From Felixounavirus LF82P2, in sequence record OZ035741.1: DNA of 64,000 bases; one strand, 5' to 3'. The notes below the pieces were generated by a model that was not told where the DNA came from, did not search any database, and saw only the letters and a list, made by a program, of their open reading frames with translations. A program made the position numbers and the translations under genes. Shown here one piece after another: positions 1,618 through 61,413 of this stretch (the first letter of the stretch is position 1; each line of letters opens with the position of its first letter).

Positions 1618-1989
1618 ATGAAGTGGCTAGAGGAAGCTTTTAAAAATAATATTGGTGCAATTGTAGTTGGTATTTTTAGTGTTATTGGGATGTATACCAC
1701 TATGCAAGTTTCAAGTGGTAAGCAAGAAGTGTCTGTCACAACAAAGTTACAGCAGCTAGATAATTATTCCAAAAGTAACTATTCAGCTATTCGTGATTTA
1801 CAGTCTGACATGAGACTGATTCAGCTAGGGATGGAGAACCAGAAAGTTCAGTTAGAGAATGTTAAGGGTGAAAACGCAAAACTTACCAAAACTCTTGATA
1901 AATTCTCTGACAGTGTGAATAATCTGGCTCAATCAGTATCAGCCCTCCAAGCTATTACTGAAAAGAACACAAAGAATACTGAAAAATAA
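1618..1989 (+). CDS. hypothetical membrane-anchored coiled-coil protein
   Basis: N-terminal hydrophobic helix followed by heptad-like Q/L/E-rich sequence; GGGG-AGAAATAA-ATG RBS. Confidence 0.4.
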   Translation: MKWLEEAFKNNIGAIVVGIFSVIGMYTTMQVSSGKQEVSVTTKLQQLDNYSKSNYSAIRDLQSDMRLIQLGMENQKVQLENVKGENAKLTKTLDKFSDSVNNLAQSVSALQAITEKNTKNTEK

Positions 1990-1995
1990 AGTTTA

Positions 1996-2024
1996 AGGCT
2001 CCTTTTTACGGGAGCCTTTTTTGT
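1996..2024. terminator. rho-independent terminator (bidirectional hairpin)
   Basis: AGGCTCC-loop-GGAGCCT hairpin followed by T-run, between convergent genes. Confidence 0.5.
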
Positions 2025-2025
2025 T

Positions 2026-2925
2026 TTACTTACCTACTGACAGAGGTGCTTCAATCTTCCCTGCATGTTGGTAGTTGTTAATGCCACCAATAAAATCACT
2101 TGCAGTAAGATGTTTTAAGTCACTTAAAGTGTTAAGTGGTACACCAATCTCAAAAGTAGGTGCATGGAACTCTTCGTTGTTCATCAGTTCATAAACCTGC
2201 TTCATATGATTCTGATAAATCTGAGTATCCCCAAAGACACCTATCAAGTATCGTGGAGTGTACCCAGTCATCTTACAAAGAACTTCCAGAATAAAACCAT
2301 AAGACGCAATATTAAACGGAAGTCCTAAAAAGGTGTCTACAGAACGTTGATACCATTGTAAGTCAACTTCACCTTCGTTAGTGATATAAATCTGAAACAG
2401 AACATGACAAGGTGCTAAAGCCATCGAGTTGGCTGCAATATCTGCTGCATTCCAAGCATTAACAAGCATGTAACGGTCTGTGATATCACCTTTCATCTTC
2501 GTTACTAAGGTCTCTAACTGGTCTACAACACAACCATTATGACCTTCAAAGTTTCTCCACTGAACCCCGTAGATTCTCCCACCTGCATCCTCTAACCAGT
2601 CTTGCTCAGAAGAATAGTTAGAGCTTAACCAGCGTTTAAAGTCATCTGACCAGATAGTCCAGCGTTCTCCATCATTTTCACCCCAAGTACGGTAACGGAG
2701 TTCGCCAAGTTTATTCTCACCATTCAGGAACCATAAAGCTTCCCCAATAACTTGCCGTGTAAACACCTGTTTAGATGTTAAGAGTGGAAAACCAGTACGC
2801 ATATCAAAGCGAAACTGTGGTGGAGCAAATGCAGAGATAACATCTCCAGTTCTTGTAGTACGCAGTTCACCAACGGATAAAACATGGTTCAGTATATTTT
2901 TGTAACTTGAATCTGCTTGTGACAT
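2026..2925 (-). CDS. thyA: thymidylate synthase
   Basis: 299 aa; ThyA motifs including active-site PCH (ALAPCHVLFQ) and conserved N-terminal FPLLTSK region; ORF appears uninterrupted. Confidence 0.85.
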   Translation of the reverse strand: MSQADSSYKNILNHVLSVGELRTTRTGDVISAFAPPQFRFDMRTGFPLLTSKQVFTRQVIGEALWFLNGENKLGELRYRTWGENDGERWTIWSDDFKRWLSSNYSSEQDWLEDAGGRIYGVQWRNFEGHNGCVVDQLETLVTKMKGDITDRYMLVNAWNAADIAANSMALAPCHVLFQIYITNEGEVDLQWYQRSVDTFLGLPFNIASYGFILEVLCKMTGYTPRYLIGVFGDTQIYQNHMKQVYELMNNEEFHAPTFEIGVPLNTLSDLKHLTASDFIGGINNYQHAGKIEAPLSVGK

Positions 2926-8307: not shown

Positions 8308-8871
8308 TCAACTTAGTTTTGCAAACTCTCCGTGGAGTTTAATAGCAGCTTCACAGTAAGCTTTATGGGCTTCTTCTGGTGTGTCAAACATACCAAGATG
8401 ATAGTTTTTACCTTGTAAACGTATCATTGCTCGAAACCTTTTACTTATCTTCTGTACACCTTTTGGCAACCCAGATGGGGACTTTCTTGACCGATTGCAA
8501 GAGTTTTGTGAAGCTGTACAAACCCTTAAATTCAAGTACCTATTGTCCCAACCGTCCCCATTCTTATGGTCAACCTGTAAGTTTTTATCAGGCAGGTATC
8601 CATCCACATATAGTATTGCTAGACGGTTAGCTTGGTAGCCTTTACCATCAAGCAATAACTGAACAGACTTGTGACCATCTGTGTTTATCCTATAATTTCC
8701 TGCCTTTTTACCTCCAAAACGAGAGTTGAAGTTCTTATTGCCTCGTGATACCGGCTCTCTAAACTTCCAAGTAAAGACCCCTGTTTCGGGGTCGTAGTCC
8801 AATAGCTCCTTAAGACGAATTTCTGTAATCATTTCAACACCATCAATGTACTTCCAACCAGCTCTTACCAA
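8308..8871 (-). CDS. HNH homing endonuclease (AP2-like DNA-binding domain)
   Basis: GVFTW motif, HKNGDGWDNRYLNLRVCTASQN HNH core; paralogous to ORF 18423-18947. Confidence 0.65.
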   Translation of the reverse strand: MVRAGWKYIDGVEMITEIRLKELLDYDPETGVFTWKFREPVSRGNKNFNSRFGGKKAGNYRINTDGHKSVQLLLDGKGYQANRLAILYVDGYLPDKNLQVDHKNGDGWDNRYLNLRVCTASQNSCNRSRKSPSGLPKGVQKISKRFRAMIRLQGKNYHLGMFDTPEEAHKAYCEAAIKLHGEFAKLS

Positions 8872-56600: not shown

Positions 56601-58016
56601 ATGAGCGAATTATTTAAACATGCGCACCTTCATGCAGGTCGAACTGAAAATGGTGCTGTAAACCATACTTCATCAATGTCTGCTCTTGTAGACTTTTACA
56701 AAGCTGCTGGTTCAAGCCGTAGCAATGTAGAAATCTTACCAGACCTGTTCTACAAAGCTTTGCGTGAGGATGTTGATGTTGCAGTTCGTATTTTACTGCA
56801 TATGCGAGATGTACGAGAAGGTATGGGTGAGCGTAAAGCCTTCAGAACTGTTTTGCTTCAAGCAATTGAAGATAAAGTTTTAGAGCCTACACAGGTTCTT
56901 CGCATTATGGATAAGATTGCAGAACTTGGTCGTTTTGATGACTTCAAAATCTTCGTAGGTACTCGTTTCGAGACAGATGCCTTCAAACATTTAGAAGCAG
57001 CATTACTAGACCCTGCAACAGCAGGTTTGGCAGCTAAGTGGTTACCACGAGTAAAACCACGTCACAAACAGTTTGTAAAACGTTTCTGCAAGTTTGCAAA
57101 CTTGAGTGAGAAGGAGTATCGCACACTGTTATCTGCACTGTCTGATACGGTTGAGCAAAAAATCTCTGCTAATGAGTTTGGTAAGATTGACTACAGTAAG
57201 ATTCCTTCACTTGCTGCTGCACGTTACCAAAAACTCTTTAACCGTAAAGATGGAGAACGCTACAAAGCTTACATTGAGTCCTTATCAAAGGGCGAGACTA
57301 AGATTAATGCTGGTGCTGTTTATCCATACGATGTGATTAAATCTGTTAAGTATGGTAATGCAGATGTTGCTAATGAGCAGTGGAAAGCACTACCAAACTG
57401 GATGGCAGAGGGTGAAAACATTCTATGTATGTCTGATGTTTCAAGTTCAATGTCTTGGGTGAATTTTGGTTCAATTACTGCTCTTGATATTGGTGTTTCA
57501 CTTGCATTGTATGTAGCAGAACGTAATACAGGTTGCTTTAAGAATGAGTTGATGGTTTATTCAACAAACCCTCACTTCATTGAACTGAGTGGTGATTTAC
57601 GAAACCGTCATCGTCAGGTGATGCGACACGTTGAATATGGCTCAACTAACTTACAAGCAGCTTTTGACCGTATTCTTGAGACAGGTAAAAGAAACAACTT
57701 GACTCAGAAAGATATGCCAAGTAAGCTTATCATCTTCTCCGATATGGAGTTCAATCAGGTTGATGGAGCTAACGGTCGTACAAACTTTGAAGCAATTCAG
57801 AGTAAGTACAAAAAAGCTGGATATGAGATGCCACAACTGGTATTCTGGTACTTAGCAAACCGTAATGGTACTTGCGAAGTATCTGTTAAGGATAACGGTG
57901 TAGCAATGGTATCAGGGTTCTCTCCAGCCACTTTAAAAGCTCTGCTTGGTGGTGAGAAGTTTGACCCAATCAGTGTAATGCTCAAAGCAGTAATGATTGA
58001 CCGTTATATCTGGTAA
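56601..58016 (+). CDS. von Willebrand factor A (vWA) domain protein
   Basis: 471 aa; MIDAS-like DVSSSMS (DxSxS) near residue 280 followed by Rossmann-like pattern; helical N-terminal domain. Confidence 0.4.
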   Translation: MSELFKHAHLHAGRTENGAVNHTSSMSALVDFYKAAGSSRSNVEILPDLFYKALREDVDVAVRILLHMRDVREGMGERKAFRTVLLQAIEDKVLEPTQVLRIMDKIAELGRFDDFKIFVGTRFETDAFKHLEAALLDPATAGLAAKWLPRVKPRHKQFVKRFCKFANLSEKEYRTLLSALSDTVEQKISANEFGKIDYSKIPSLAAARYQKLFNRKDGERYKAYIESLSKGETKINAGAVYPYDVIKSVKYGNADVANEQWKALPNWMAEGENILCMSDVSSSMSWVNFGSITALDIGVSLALYVAERNTGCFKNELMVYSTNPHFIELSGDLRNRHRQVMRHVEYGSTNLQAAFDRILETGKRNNLTQKDMPSKLIIFSDMEFNQVDGANGRTNFEAIQSKYKKAGYEMPQLVFWYLANRNGTCEVSVKDNGVAMVSGFSPATLKALLGGEKFDPISVMLKAVMIDRYIW

Positions 58017-58035
58017 AAAGTTTTAAAAAGGGTAT

Positions 58036-58064
58036 TGACAATGTGTTTAATACCCTTTAATATG
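58036..58064 (+). promoter_or_regulatory. sigma70-like promoter (TTGACA-17-TAATAT) upstream of tRNA cluster
   Basis: Consensus -35 and near-consensus -10. Confidence 0.45.
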
Positions 58065-58171
58065 TTCTACATAGAAGCGAAATGAGAGCTTTTCTAAGAT
58101 ACTGAAAAATATTTTAAAAAAGCTCTTGACAACCACTAAAAAATAATGTTAAAGTGGTTACATAGAGTTTG

Positions 58172-58343: not shown

Positions 58344-58434
58344 GTTTTGACAGAAGACCAAATACAGCAAACTTAATCTTATTCATCTGAAGGTAAATCG
58401 GACAAAGAAGAGATTTGGTCTGGTCATTAAGAAT

Positions 58435-58511: not shown

Positions 58512-58594
58512 AATTTACAGAAGACCGTTTACAGCAACATTTATTAAATTTTTAGCGGAAAAATTGAAAGATACGGTCTGGTAATACTAAACAT

Positions 58595-58833: not shown

Positions 58834-58911
58834 GGTTATGTAGTTTAATTTGGTTAAAATACTCCCCTGTCACGGGAGATGATGAGGGTTCAAATCCCTT
58901 CGTAACCGCCA
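58834..58911 (+). tRNA. tRNA-Asp (anticodon GTC)
   Basis: Acceptor GGTTATG/CGTAACC, anticodon stem CTCCC/GGGAG loop CTGTCAC. Confidence 0.7.
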
Positions 58912-59081
58912 ATTTTGAGAGGGCTATTTAGCCCCTCCCTTAAAGGGTTCTTACGAGTATCCTTTAAAGGAGCAGAAGACCAAATACAGCAAGTTACTTA
59001 AAATTTCAAGCCAATTTAATTTTGAAAAATTTAAAACTTGGTCTGGCTCAACAAATTTACAGAAGACCGTTTACAGCAAAA

Positions 59082-59178
59082 CTTAAACAATCTATTTCTC
59101 GGTAAAGAAAAGGCGAAGGTTCGATTCCTTCACTCGGCAGATGTCGAGTTGGTGTAATGGTAGCACTTAAGATGATAA
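59082..59178 (+). pseudogene. tRNA halves in permuted order (3' half upstream of 5' half); possible circularly permuted tRNA or rearranged pseudogene
   Basis: 3' part 59082-59139 (CTTAA, variable-arm hairpin, T-arm GAAGG-TTCGATT-CCTTC, acceptor ACTCGGC) then 5' part 59143-59178 (acceptor GTCGAGT, D-arm, TTAAG, loop ATGATAA). Confidence 0.35.
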
Positions 59179-59339
59179 ACAACGGTCTGGTAATTATCTT
59201 TGTAGATAAGTTATTAAGCTTACCTGTGAGTATGCGACCACAAAGGGTGAAAGGGTAAATTCTAGATTTAAACCCAAAAAGGCACATCGCTACAGACCTT
59301 AAGCAAGTCTGGGTAGCTTATCTACAAAGATAATTTAAT

Positions 59340-59415
59340 GGAAGTGTAGCAGAATGGTGATGCGGCAGACTTTTAATCTGACAGGCGATGGGTTCGAATC
59401 CCTCCACTTCTACCA
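59340..59415 (+). tRNA. tRNA-Lys (anticodon TTT)
   Basis: Acceptor GGAAGTG/CACTTCT, anticodon loop CTTTTAA, T-loop GGGTTCGAATCCC. Confidence 0.65.
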
Positions 59416-59419
59416 ATAT

Positions 59420-59496
59420 GGTTCAGTCGCAGATAAGGTAATGCAAGGGTCTCATAAGCCCTATGAATGTGGGTTCGAATCCCATCTGAACCTCCA
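59420..59496 (+). tRNA. tRNA-Met (anticodon CAT), GGG/CCC anticodon stem (initiator-like feature)
   Basis: Anticodon arm AGGGT-CTCATAA-GCCCT; acceptor GGTTCAG/CTGAACC fully paired. Confidence 0.65.
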
Positions 59497-59498
59497 AT

Positions 59499-59573
59499 TG
59501 TGGGTTAGCATAAATGGTAATGCAAACGGCTGATAACCGTTAGAAGAGGGTTCGATACCCTCACCTACAACCA
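59499..59573 (+). tRNA. tRNA-Ile (anticodon GAT)
   Basis: Anticodon arm AACGG-CTGATAA-CCGTT; T-loop GGGTTCGATACCC. Confidence 0.7.
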
Positions 59574-59591
59574 AGTTCAATAAAGTTGTTG

Positions 59592-59620
59592 ACATTGAGA
59601 TGTGACTACTTTATAGTAAC
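59592..59620 (+). promoter_or_regulatory. sigma70-like promoter inside tRNA cluster (TTGACA-17-TATAGT)
   Basis: Consensus -35 and good -10 in spacer after tRNA-Ile. Confidence 0.45.
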
Positions 59621-59821
59621 CTTAGTTTTCGTTGCGTAGCGTCTATTTTGCAAATTTAAAATAAATGCAAACGACAATGTTTTTCTGGCAGTAGCTTGAT
59701 AGGCTAAACACCAGTGAGGTCTTCCAATCCCTCATCAAAGAATTTGGCGTACTCGCCCACGGTATGATTAATAAGGTGGGCATCTTTAAGGGCTTTCTAA
59801 GAGAGTCTTTAAAGATAATTA

Positions 59822-59903
59822 CGGGGCGTATCTCAGCGGTCTTCTAAACCGCCGTTAACCGAGTAAGTGGAGTATGCGGGTTCGAGTCCTGCCGCCTCGA
59901 CCA
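59822..59903 (+). tRNA. atypical tRNA-like gene (possible Arg, anticodon TCT), non-canonical arm arrangement
   Basis: Acceptor CGGGGCG/CGCCTCG plus T-arm GCGGG-TTCGAGT-CCTGC and CCA; perfect hairpin GCGGT-CTTCTAA-ACCGC sits where the D-arm should be. Confidence 0.4.
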
Positions 59904-60046: not shown

Positions 60047-60129
60047 ATGGGACGATGTTAAGACTCTAAGGCATGAGCAACGGCCTCCAAAACCGTTTCA
60101 AAGGGGTTCAACTCCTCCGTCCCATGCCA
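60047..60129 (+). tRNA. tRNA-Trp (anticodon CCA), enlarged D region (83 nt)
   Basis: Perfect acceptor ATGGGAC/GTCCCAT, anticodon arm ACGGC-CTCCAAA-ACCGT, T-loop GGGGTTCAACTCC. Confidence 0.5.
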
Positions 60130-60230: not shown

Positions 60231-60488
60231 CCTAATAAGATTTTTAAAGCCAAGCTTCATTCGGATGTTGCTTTGGTATCCCTCGTGTATTGTCGTACAC
60301 ACTGATAAAACACCTAGTAGGTGTCACGGAGAAGAGATAATATCAAGCTCTCCAAAGGTTCTAGTCACCGGATTAAACAAGACTATGCAAAGACCTTTTA
60401 GGTCTTTTTAGAGGGCTTCTAAGGTTATTACAGCTTGTTGTGGAACCTTGTTGCTTAGGTTCTTAGAAGTTCTCTAAAAAGATTTAAT

Positions 60489-60826: not shown

Positions 60827-61240
60827 ATGAAAATATGCAGTACTTGCAGAATACCAAAAGATGAAAGCTTATTCCATAAGAATAAGAACAAGAAAGACGG
60901 TCTTCAAAGTCAATGCAAAGATTGTGCAAGACTCCGTGATGCAAAGAGTTATCAAGCAAATGATAAAAGGAAAGAGGCTATTAAAAGCACTCGTAACTTC
61001 AAGAGAGAGCATAACAAGACTCTAGCTAGAAGGTACAAAGCTTTATGCAAATGTCATATATGTGGTGAGAAAGAACCAGTTGCACTGGATTTACACCATA
61101 CAGACCCTTCCCAGAAAGATTTGAATCCTGCATCACTTTATTCATACTCCACAAAAAGATTAAAAGATGAAATCAGAAAGTGCATTGTCTTGTGCGCTAA
61201 CTGTCACAGAAAAGTACATGCTGGTATCATAAAAGTTTAA
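60827..61240 (+). CDS. HNH endonuclease embedded in tRNA cluster
   Basis: Cys-rich N-terminus and C-terminal DLHHTD..CANCHRKVH HNH motif. Confidence 0.6.
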   Translation: MKICSTCRIPKDESLFHKNKNKKDGLQSQCKDCARLRDAKSYQANDKRKEAIKSTRNFKREHNKTLARRYKALCKCHICGEKEPVALDLHHTDPSQKDLNPASLYSYSTKRLKDEIRKCIVLCANCHRKVHAGIIKV

Positions 61241-61318: not shown

Positions 61319-61413
61319 ATTCAGAGGTCAAGTGAAAGACCGCTGGTGTCAACTGAAGACCGTAACAAATTCCACGGAGTTGAGTTAGCGGCACAACTTC
61401 AGACCTCTTTCAT

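What the first reader, a model, noticed from the sequence alone, without database searches (positions are those of the whole stretch)
59191..59337. Perfect 19 bp inverted repeat enclosing ~105 nt between the permuted-tRNA unit and tRNA-Lys
AATTATCTTTGTAGATAAG (59191-59209) is exactly complementary to CTTATCTACAAAGATAATT (59317-59335), giving a long stem around a ~105 nt insert with no coding potential. Such a long perfect stem inside a tRNA operon suggests an RNase III processing site, a structured small RNA, or a recombination or insertion scar.
Basis: seen in the sequence. Interest (0 to 1): 0.5.

Follow-up and report, generated by a model that had tools for sequence, protein, structure and literature searches.

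The report
Structured small RNA beside phage tRNA-Lys
The inverted repeat is the two-turn closing stem of a conserved, pseudoknotted ~145-nt non-coding RNA, not in Rfam 15 or the papers searched, that sits just before tRNA-Lys in the tRNA array of Felix O1-like phages, downstream of a Ro60-like gene; its function is unknown.

Summary
The repeat is real. The arms are 59192-59210 and 59317-59335 (the 5' arm was reported one base off), and with G·U pairs the stem extends to 24 bp. It is the longest perfect inverted repeat in the window.

It is not a scar, and it is more than a cleavage hairpin. It is helix P1 of a ~145-nt + strand RNA with a three-way junction (P1, P2-P3-P4, P5) and a pseudoknot between J1/2 and the P5 loop.

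The RNA lies 0-8 nt upstream of tRNA-Lys(UUU) in about 250 Felixounavirus, Mooglevirus and Suspvirus genomes and in nine more distant metagenomic relatives.
- P1 keeps 22-24 bp in most lineages although its sequence is almost entirely replaced.
- Changes in the stem are compensatory or give G·U.

Rfam 15 has no match, no ORF is conserved, and no U-tract terminator follows. Inside Felixounavirus two alleles (73% identical) sit between 99-100% identical flanks.

The neighbourhood is unusual: a structurally Ro60-like gene (DUF2828/DUF7788), then σ70-type promoters, tRNAs, four Y-RNA-like modules (one being the "permuted tRNA", which resembles YrlA) and this RNA.

Most likely it is a stable small RNA excised from the tRNA precursor. 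RNase P would make its 3' end. P1 would serve as an RNase III stalk or as a clamp against exonucleases. Processing and function are inferred, not shown.

The parts
59192..59215 (+). P1 5' strand. The 19-nt perfect arm is 59192-59210; the helix extends to 24 bp with G·U pairs.
   Evidence: covariation
59312..59335 (+). P1 3' strand. The 19-nt perfect arm is 59317-59335. It ends 4 nt before tRNA-Lys(UUU).
59218..59222 (+). J1/2 segment GCUUA, the 5' half of the proposed pseudoknot with the P5 loop
   Evidence: The partner covaries across lineages (GCUAA/UUAGC, UUACUA/UAGUAA, UUGUUCA/UGAACAA).
59234..59290 (+). Long arm P2-P3-P4. P2 is GCGA 59234-59237 / UCGC 59287-59290. P3 is GUG 59247-59249 / CAC 59283-59285. 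P4 is GGGU 59253-59256 / ACCC 59272-59275. The P4 loop carries the palindrome UCUAGA at 59261-59266. The family motif RGUAKGC (GAGUAUGC here) is at 59229-59236.
   Evidence: Hand-derived helices, checked by script in 12 lineages and on the alignments. These helices are short, so they are less certain than P1 and P5.
59293..59311 (+). P5 hairpin CAGAC-CUUAAGCAA-GUCUG, directly abutting the P1 3' strand. Loop nucleotides 59300-59304 (UAAGC) are the 3' half of the pseudoknot.
59340..59415 (+). tRNA-Lys(UUU). It is the invariable downstream neighbour, and its RNase P site would define the 3' end of the small RNA.
59059..59194 (+). Upstream neighbour: a Y-RNA-like module with a tRNA-like domain (T arm, closed acceptor-like stem, D arm). 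It has YrlA-like architecture.
   Evidence: YrlA description in PMC4201824
56601..58016 (+). Ro60-like protein gene (Pfam DUF2828 + DUF7788; PHROG 850 'RNA-binding protein') at the head of the RNA array
58035..58155 (+). Two σ70-type promoter-like sites upstream of the first tRNA. They are the likely start of the precursor that contains the element. The next promoter-like site is at 59589.
   Evidence: (family D7)

Best explanation
The inverted repeat is the closing helix (P1) of an independent ~145-nt structured non-coding RNA on the + strand. The fold, shown by comparative analysis, has these parts:
- P1, 22-24 bp.
- A three-way junction that carries a long arm (P2-P3-P4) and a short hairpin (P5) directly abutting P1.
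- A pseudoknot between the strand just after P1 and the 9-nt P5 loop (C-Y-U-N-N-G-C-A-A).

The biogenesis is inferred. The RNA is transcribed from the σ70-type promoters at about 58035 and 58126 as part of the tRNA-Pro...tRNA-Ile precursor. It is then cut out by the enzymes that mature the tRNAs.
- RNase P cleavage at the 5' end of tRNA-Lys, 0-8 nt after P1, makes its 3' end.
- The 5' end comes from RNase III cutting within the two-turn P1, or from RNase E cutting in the AU-rich linker.

P1 therefore works as a processing stalk and as a clamp that shields both ends from exonucleases, giving a stable small RNA. It also frees the leader of tRNA-Lys.

The function is speculative. The folded core may be a protein-binding scaffold that works with the phage's Ro60-like protein and the neighbouring Y-RNA-like modules, in handling tRNAs or other RNAs during infection.
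For: Distribution:
- The same element is found at the same place in 249 phage records, as two sequence types.
- It is also present in nine more distant contigs whose Ro60-like protein is 53-63% identical.

P1 and P5:
- P1 is 22-24 bp in 7 of 10 lineages, with almost no shared sequence. In the other three it is interrupted by small internal loops.
- On alignment A2, 99.4% of P1+P5 cells are paired and 10 pairs change on both sides. None of 500 shuffles reaches this, and slid controls give 28-44% paired.
- There are 54 G·U cells against 3 non-pairs. The covariance model scores 149 bits on the + strand and 29 bits on the - strand. The constraint is therefore on + strand RNA.

Interior and pseudoknot:
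- The interior helices occur in the same order in 12 lineages with different sequences.
- The pseudoknot partners covary. The mean Watson-Crick run is 5.2 for a lineage's own loop against 3.6 for other lineages' loops.

Processing context:
- In L104 the element exactly fills the gap between two tRNAs (tRNA coordinates).
- There are promoter-like sites upstream and no terminator at the element.
- No ORF is conserved across the element.

Protein context:
- The upstream protein model (pLDDT 87) has Ro60/TROVE structures as its 11 best PDB matches over its full length, with TM-scores up to 0.65.

Precedent:
- The T4 tRNA-cluster transcript is also the precursor of the stable species I and II RNAs (PMC2330249; annotation).
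Against: - No transcript ends, abundance or cleavage data were available, so every processing step is inference.
- P2-P4 are short, hand-picked helices.
- Two lineages (L021, L106) do not show a convincing pseudoknot.
- P1 has no conserved sequence or bulge that could serve as a specific protein site.
- The canonical Ro-binding motifs (GGUCCGA, GNCGAAN0-1G/CGAA) are absent, so the link to the Ro60-like protein rests on gene neighbourhood only.
- A fully paired 23-bp helix might be destroyed by RNase III rather than matured.
- The family was not found next to the 75 more distant DUF2828 genes examined. It is therefore not an obligate partner of that protein family.
Confidence: 0.55

Rival explanations
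1. Pure processing signal. The hairpin exists only as an RNase III site that separates the upstream Y-RNA-like RNA from tRNA-Lys-Met-Ile, and the interior is a spacer with no function.
For: - The helix is two turns long, AU-rich and conserved in length.
- It ends 0-8 nt before a tRNA.
- Two other long hairpins in the window end with the same AAAGAU(A)AUUUAAU just before a tRNA or tRNA-like gene.
- In three lineages P1 carries small internal loops. This resembles T7 RNase III sites (own knowledge).
Against: - The interior is not free to drift. P5, the pseudoknot, P2-P4 and the RGUAKGC motif are retained with compensatory changes across lineages that share little sequence.
- A cleavage site would not need about 100 nt of conserved architecture.
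Confidence: 0.15
2. A true Y RNA. The long 5'/3' stem is the binding site of the phage Ro60-like protein, and the core is the effector module, for example a tether to PNPase as in RYPER complexes.
For: - A Ro60-like gene lies 1.2 kb upstream in the same orientation.
- Y RNAs are defined by a long stem formed by the two ends plus a variable module, and they are encoded next to Ro60. Phage examples are known (PMC4201824; PMC12135203).
- A YrlA-like tRNA-mimic module sits immediately upstream.
Against: - There is no conserved Ro-binding motif or bulge in P1, and the P1 sequence is not conserved at all.
- The four neighbouring modules do carry conserved flanking motifs (ACAGAAGAC...GUCUGGYAAU). 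They are the better candidates for binding the protein.
- The element is absent from 75 other phage loci that have the same protein family.
Confidence: 0.15
3. A cis-acting leader of tRNA-Lys(UUU). The fold controls maturation, folding or yield of the adjacent tRNA. Anticodon nucleases target tRNA-Lys(UUU), which would make control of this tRNA valuable.
For: - In every lineage the element is 0-8 nt from tRNA-Lys(UUU), even where the rest of the array is rearranged.
- The P1 3' strand occupies the tRNA leader.
Against: - No base-pairing between the element and the tRNA was seen.
- Paralogous long-stem RNAs precede other tRNAs in L021 and L104.
- The fold is closed on itself by P1, as expected for an autonomous RNA.
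Confidence: 0.1
4. A DNA-level feature: the terminal inverted repeats of a miniature mobile element, a recombination site, or an insertion scar.
For: - The repeat is a perfect inverted repeat.
- There are two alleles of the core between 99-100% identical flanks.
- A homing-endonuclease-like gene lies in the same array.
Against: - The element is present in all relatives at one position and is single-copy.
- No duplicated target site is seen.
- Stem changes are compensatory or G·U on the + strand only. That pattern is meaningless for DNA.
Confidence: 0.03
5. A self-cleaving ribozyme or a riboswitch-like aptamer, given the three-way junction plus pseudoknot.
For: The topology resembles that of several ribozymes and aptamers (own knowledge).
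Against: - No Rfam 15 family matches at E <= 1 in the window, or at E <= 0.1 in seven relatives.
- No conserved catalytic-core sequence is shared by all lineages.
- A 23-bp P1 is not a switching helix.
Confidence: 0.02

Closest known systems
Phage T4 species I and II RNAs (rnaC, rnaD)
   Same: They are stable small RNAs of 139 and 119 nt and of unknown function. They are encoded inside a phage tRNA gene cluster and made from the same precursor as the tRNAs (PMC2330249; annotation). From memory, unverified here: species I RNA is cleaved by RNase III in vitro (Paddock et al. 1976).
   Different: There is no detectable homology: model R1 gives no hit on rnaC or rnaD. rnaC folds like a tRNA with a T arm and a giant extra hairpin. 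It is not a three-way junction with a pseudoknot closed by a two-turn helix.
Y RNAs, including bacterial and phage YrlA
   Same: They are encoded next to a Ro60-type protein, and the 5' and 3' ends pair in a long stem that closes a variable module. Phage examples are known (PMC4201824; PMC12135203).
   Different: The element lacks the conserved Ro-binding helix or motif and has no tRNA-like domain. The partner protein here is a very divergent Ro60 relative (DUF2828/DUF7788) that shows no sequence hit to solved Ro60 structures. The neighbouring modules fit the Y and YrlA description better.
rRNA and T7 RNase III processing stalks
   Same: Flanking sequences pair into a helix of about two turns that encloses the RNA to be released from a polycistronic precursor.
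   Different: Cleavage is untested here. The enclosed RNA is small.
GOLLD and ROOL ornate RNAs
   Same: They are structured RNAs of unknown function. Association with phages and tRNA arrays is from own knowledge; the Nature paper (PMC12286853) was seen only in a search listing and its text was not read.
   Different: They are four to six times larger and occur in different hosts. Rfam models for them do not match.

Membership tests
Y RNA / YrlA | Encoded close to a Ro60 (TROVE) gene | tested here: met
   ORF 56601-58016 is DUF2828+DUF7788. Its model has Ro60/TROVE structures as its top 11 PDB matches. The element lies 1.2 kb downstream on the same strand.
Y RNA / YrlA | 5' and 3' ends pair in a long terminal stem | tested here: met
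   P1 is 22-24 bp. The true RNA ends are not known.
Y RNA / YrlA | Conserved Ro-binding helix or motif (GGUCCGA; GNCGAAN0-1G / CGAA in a bulged stem) | tested here: not met
   There is no such motif in P1 or at a fixed place in the core. The P1 sequence differs completely between lineages. Motif definitions come from PMC4201824 and PMC12135203.
Y RNA / YrlA | tRNA-like domain (YrlA subfamily) | tested here: not met
   The element has no T or D arm. The neighbour at 59059-59194 does.
Y RNA / YrlA | Binds the Ro60 protein | not testable with these tools
   Needs RIP/CLIP or gel-shift assays.
RNase III substrate / processing stalk | Regular dsRNA helix of about 20 bp or more | tested here: met
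   24 bp in the window, and 22-24 bp in 7 of 10 lineages.
RNase III substrate / processing stalk | Cleaved by RNase III in vivo or in vitro | not testable with these tools
   Needs end mapping in rnc+ and Δrnc hosts, or an in vitro assay.
T4 species I/II-type stable RNA of a phage tRNA cluster | Non-tRNA structured RNA inside a phage tRNA cluster, within the same transcription unit | tested here: met
   The element lies between tRNA-Asp and tRNA-Lys, with promoter-like sites only upstream of the array and after tRNA-Ile, and no terminator. Co-transcription is inferred.
T4 species I/II-type stable RNA of a phage tRNA cluster | Sequence or structure homology to rnaC or rnaD | tested here: not met
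   Model R1 with filters off gives no hit on rnaC or rnaD. The folds differ.
Any Rfam 15 family (ribozymes, riboswitches, sRNAs) | Covariance-model match | tested here: not met
   Nothing at the element at E <= 1 in the window, nor at E <= 0.1 in seven relatives.
Miniature mobile element / insertion scar | Variable presence, multiple copies, target-site duplication | tested here: not met
   The element is present in all relatives examined at one site. It is single-copy in the window. There is no flanking direct repeat.
Intrinsic terminator | GC-rich stem followed by a U tract | tested here: not met
   The stem is AU-rich and about 145 nt across, and is followed by UAAUGG. The terminator scan lists nothing here.

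The most novel reading that the evidence does not exclude
The element is a new class of phage non-coding RNA. In this reading it works with the phage's divergent Ro60-like protein and the YrlA-like tRNA mimics as one phage-encoded RNP system embedded in the tRNA array. The system would survey or repair tRNA, or act as a decoy, to keep the phage's tRNA-Lys(UUU) supply working against host anticodon nucleases such as PrrC or PARIS. The two alleles of the core would then reflect an arms race.
Probability: 0.15. Interest if true: 0.85.

Novelty: new variant of a known kind. Interest (0 to 1): 0.58.

Why it matters
Felix O1 and its relatives are classical phages that are widely used for typing and therapy, yet this part of their tRNA region is annotated at most with short 'hypothetical proteins'. 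The analysis shows that the region holds a dense array of structured RNAs behind a Ro60-like gene. One of these RNAs is a pseudoknotted fold of about 145 nt that matched no Rfam 15 family and none of the papers found in the searches run here.

- It adds a candidate RNA class, with clear covariation, that is small enough for structure determination.
- It gives a genetically tractable E. coli and Salmonella phage system for asking what Ro60/Y-RNA-type RNPs do in viruses.
- It suggests that phage tRNA arrays also serve as processing 'punctuation' that releases other functional RNAs.

If the RNA proves to be tied to protecting tRNA-Lys from host nucleases, it would bear on phage-host conflict and on phage therapy design.

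Tried and rejected
- **Rfam.** Searches of the window and of seven relatives found nothing at the element.
- **Pattern scans of IMG/VR.** GTGTAACGTTCACT and a P5-loop pattern returned 86 and 19 loci. All were chance matches, with no hit to model R1.
- **Model R1 against distant loci.** A search of 75 distant phage loci that carry a DUF2828 gene gave no hits, so the RNA is confined to the Felix O1-like clade. A regular-expression search for the neighbouring Y-like modules in the same loci returned only noise.
- **Sequence searches of the upstream protein against the PDB.** Searches with the single sequence and with a profile found nothing. Only the fold comparison showed the Ro60 relationship.
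- **Literature searches.** Searches for Felix O1 transcriptomics, Y RNAs in these phages, DUF2828, or structured RNAs in tRNA arrays found nothing on this element. The supplement of Chen et al. 2014 is not held.
- **Hammerhead reading.** A reading based on 'CCGAUGA' in one allele was dropped because the motif is absent from the other lineages.
- **P5 loop as a tRNA-Lys anticodon-loop mimic.** This idea (CUUxxGCAA against CUUUUAA) was set aside because the loop appears to be engaged in the pseudoknot.
- **MAFFT alignment A2.** It misaligns P2 and the pseudoknot between the two alleles. Those helices were therefore checked by script rather than with the pair-counting tool.
- **Alignment A3.** It was contaminated with minus-strand matches and was not used.

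Full report
**1. The observation**

The window is a Felix O1-like phage (Felixounavirus). The region 58900-59420 is 100% identical to Escherichia phages VpaE1_ev035 and adrianh, and 99% identical to Felix O1.

The sequence AATTATCTTTGTAGATAAG lies at 59192-59210, one base to the right of the reported position. Its exact complement lies at 59317-59335, with 106 nt between them. The repeat finder extends it to 22 nt at 95%. As RNA, with U·G pairs, the helix is 24 bp: 59192-59215 with 59312-59335.

In the whole 64-kb window only six inverted repeats of at least 16 nt have arms within 300 nt of each other. This is the only long perfect one, and another of the six lies in the same tRNA array. The + strand folds at -48.3 kcal/mol, z = -5.0.

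**2. Conservation and the level of selection**

A search with 59150-59345 finds the region in 249 phage records from Felixounavirus, Mooglevirus and Suspvirus. It always lies between a tRNA-like unit and tRNA-Lys(UUU).

There are two sequence types. The window type is found in about 190 records. A second type is about 70-74% identical over the 196-nt query. Compared with the Felixounavirus Seyj1-1, the 150 nt upstream are 100% identical, the 150 nt downstream are 98.7% identical, and the element itself is only 72.6% identical. The core therefore exists as two alleles between near-identical flanks.

Within the window type, substitutions in the stem are A-to-G changes opposite U. Phage DE17 has four of them. 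These keep a G·U pair in + strand RNA but would be mismatches on the other strand or in DNA.

On an 18-sequence alignment the outer stem and the 3' hairpin give these results:
- 99.4% of cells are paired.
- 10 pairs change on both sides.
- None of 500 shuffles reaches the observed score.
- Slid controls give 28-44% paired.
- There are 54 G·U cells and only 3 non-pairs.

A covariance model built from this alignment scores 149 bits on the + strand and 29 bits on the - strand. No ORF is conserved across the element: the 76-codon minus-strand ORF of the window is cut to 41 codons in the other allele and is absent from L019.

**3. More distant relatives and the fold**

The gene upstream of the array was used as a handle. 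This gave nine contigs from related phages whose protein is 53-63% identical. One of them is Yersinia phage vB_YenM_P778. All share the same gene order.

In each contig a 143-174-nt structured segment lies 0-8 nt upstream of tRNA-Lys(UUU). The outer helix is 22-24 bp in the window, the second allele, L019/L102, L021, L106, L104 and L105. In L020, L103 and L107 it is broken by small internal loops. The sequences of the helix have almost nothing in common between lineages.

A short hairpin, P5, directly abuts the 3' strand of the outer helix in those lineages. It has 5-6 bp and a 9-nt loop, C-Y-U-N-N-G-C-A-A. Its stem covaries: CAGAC/GUCUG, CAGUC/GACUG, CAAACC/GGUUUG, UGUUC/GAACG, AAAGUC/GACUUU.

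The loop of P5 can pair with the strand that immediately follows the 5' half of P1, and the two partners change together:
- GCUUA/UAAGC in the window.
- UUGCUUA/UAAGCAA in L019.
- GCUAA/UUAGC in the second allele and in L105.
- UUACUA/UAGUAA in L104.
- UUGUUCA/UGAACAA in L107.

The mean Watson-Crick run is 5.2 for a lineage's own loop, against 3.6 for loops of other lineages. L021 and L106 are exceptions.

Between these elements a long arm of three short helices (P2-P3-P4) can be drawn in the same order in all 12 lineages, with different sequences. P2 starts in a shared motif, RGUAKGC. These short helices were picked by hand and are less secure than P1 and P5.

The fold is thus a three-way junction closed by a two-turn helix and locked by a pseudoknot. 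The window coordinates are listed under 'parts'.

**4. What it is not**

- **Known RNA family.** Rfam 15 has no match at the element, in the window at E <= 1 or in seven relatives at E <= 0.1.
- **Terminator.** The stem is AU-rich, no U tract follows, and the terminator scan lists nothing here.
- **Mobile element or scar.** It is single-copy, always present, and evolves under RNA-pairing rules.
- **Partner of all DUF2828 proteins.** Model R1 finds it only in the Felix O1-like clade. It is absent from 75 loci of other phages that carry the same protein family and from the loci returned by two pattern scans of IMG/VR.

**5. The neighbourhood**

The 471-residue ORF at 56601-58016 matches Pfam DUF2828 and DUF7788 and PHROG 850 'RNA-binding protein'. 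It has no sequence match in the PDB. Its AlphaFold model has pLDDT 87 and pTM 0.87. The 11 best PDB matches of the model are all Ro60/TROVE proteins matched over the full length. They include Thermus phage phiLo Ro60, Xenopus Ro60 (TM 0.65) and Deinococcus Rsr.

After this gene come two σ70-type promoter-like sites (58035, 58126) and then the array. The next promoter-like site is at 59589, after tRNA-Ile.

Between the tRNAs lie four paralogous modules, each with ACAGAAGACC-N4-ACAGCAA at the 5' side and NNGGUCUGG at the 3' side. The fourth module (59059-59194) encloses a T arm, a closed acceptor-like stem and a D arm. It has the architecture described for bacterial and phage YrlA Y RNAs (PMC4201824).

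Phage Ro60 and Y-like RNA pairs have been described for mycobacteriophages, CcrColossus, phage G and Thermus phiLo (PMC12135203). I found nothing on Felix O1-like phages.

**6. How it most likely works**

*Shown.* The element is a conserved, autonomous + strand RNA fold whose two ends are brought together by P1. P1 keeps a length of about two helical turns. The 3' end of P1 is always within 8 nt of the 5' end of a tRNA. In L104 the element exactly fills the space between two tRNAs.

*Inferred.* The RNA is released from the tRNA precursor by the tRNA-processing machinery. RNase P makes its 3' end. The 5' end comes from RNase III cutting in P1 or from RNase E cutting in the AU-rich linker. P1 acts as a processing stalk and as protection for both ends.

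The T4 tRNA cluster, whose transcript also yields the stable species I and II RNAs (PMC2330249), is the closest precedent. T4 rnaC and rnaD are not homologous to this RNA.

*Speculative.* The core may be a scaffold acting with the Ro60-like protein and the Y-like modules, perhaps in connection with tRNA-Lys(UUU), which is a known target of host anticodon nucleases (own knowledge).

The rival readings are a pure RNase III site, a true Y RNA, a leader of tRNA-Lys, a DNA-level repeat, and a ribozyme or aptamer. They are weighed in their own section.

**7. Verdict**

The element is a structured RNA family with good covariation support that matched no Rfam 15 family and none of the papers found here. 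It is of the known general kind 'stable RNA embedded in a phage tRNA operon', in a context (Ro60-like gene plus Y-like and tRNA-mimic modules) for which I found no description in these phages. Its function remains unknown.

Noticed in passing
window 56601-58016 (+): The 471-aa ORF matches DUF2828+DUF7788 and PHROG 850 'RNA-binding protein'. By predicted structure it is a full-length Ro60/TROVE relative (HEAT-repeat ring plus vWA domain with DxSxS), although it has no sequence hit to solved Ro60 structures. It has more than 2500 homologues, and those listed that carry a source name or were traced to a contig are from phages.
   Followed up: yes
window 58350-58425, 58517-58585, 58972-59050, 59059-59194 (+): Four paralogous spacer modules (ACAGAAGACC-N4-ACAGCAA ... 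NNGGUCUGG, with a covarying 7-bp stem) lie between tRNAs. The last one encloses a T arm, a closed acceptor-like stem and a D arm (YrlA-like, the 'permuted tRNA'). Some GenBank records annotate a tRNA-Met, tRNA-Thr or pseudo-tRNA feature somewhere in this tRNA-Asp to tRNA-Lys interval. A similar 5' motif (CTGAAGACCGTAAC) occurs at 61353 between tRNA-Thr and tRNA-Val.
   Followed up: partly
window 59788-59820 and 60394-60487 (+): Two more long hairpins (about 15 bp, and 26 bp at 85%) have 3' arms that end in AAAGAU(A)AUUUAAU-like sequence, as the studied stem does. They end 1-2 nt before a tRNA-like gene (59822) and before tRNA-Leu (60489). This may be a shared processing signal.
   Followed up: partly
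window 59822-59900 and 60049-60123 (+): These are tRNA-like sequences that ARAGORN does not call. The first scores 31.7 bits with the Rfam tRNA model, just above its gathering score. The second is a weak tRNA-Sec-like match (23 bits).
   Followed up: no
window 59516-59820 (+): There are weak matches, below the gathering score, to permuted tmRNA (31.4 bits) and tmRNA (16 bits). They lie just downstream of the best σ70-type promoter-like site of the region (59589-59617, 11 of 12 matches). Equivalent weak hits occur in relatives L003 and L001.
   Followed up: no
window 60827-61240 (+): A 137-aa ORF with a weak HNH endonuclease match (E = 0.005, below the Pfam cut-off) lies inside the tRNA array. 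A relative (SPJ41) has an annotated HNH homing endonuclease near the same region.
   Followed up: no
window 59192-59335 versus L001 (Seyj1-1): There are two alleles of the RNA core within one genus. Flanks are 100% and 98.7% identical over 150 nt, while the element is 72.6% identical. The window allele resembles L019/L102, and the other allele has a P5 hairpin like that of L104. This suggests exchange of the core between phages.
   Followed up: partly
window 59261-59266; L019 about 8344-8353: The P4 loop carries a CUAG-centred palindrome that changes symmetrically between lineages: UCUAGA in both Felixounavirus alleles, and AUACUAGUAU in L019/L102. It could be a kissing-loop dimerisation site. 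The more distant lineages have a different hairpin here (GYG-UAACGUU-CRC).
   Followed up: partly
L021 7800-7999; L104 6779-6977; L213 (T4) 1909-2047 (-): In two distant relatives a second RNA of about 190 nt, with a closing stem of about 30 bp and two GAGUAG motifs, precedes the first tRNA. T4 species I RNA (rnaC) also contains two GAGUAGCG motifs and an AACGUUC. This is reminiscent of the RGUAKGC and UAACGUU motifs of the family studied here, and may be a shared tertiary or protein-binding motif.
   Followed up: no
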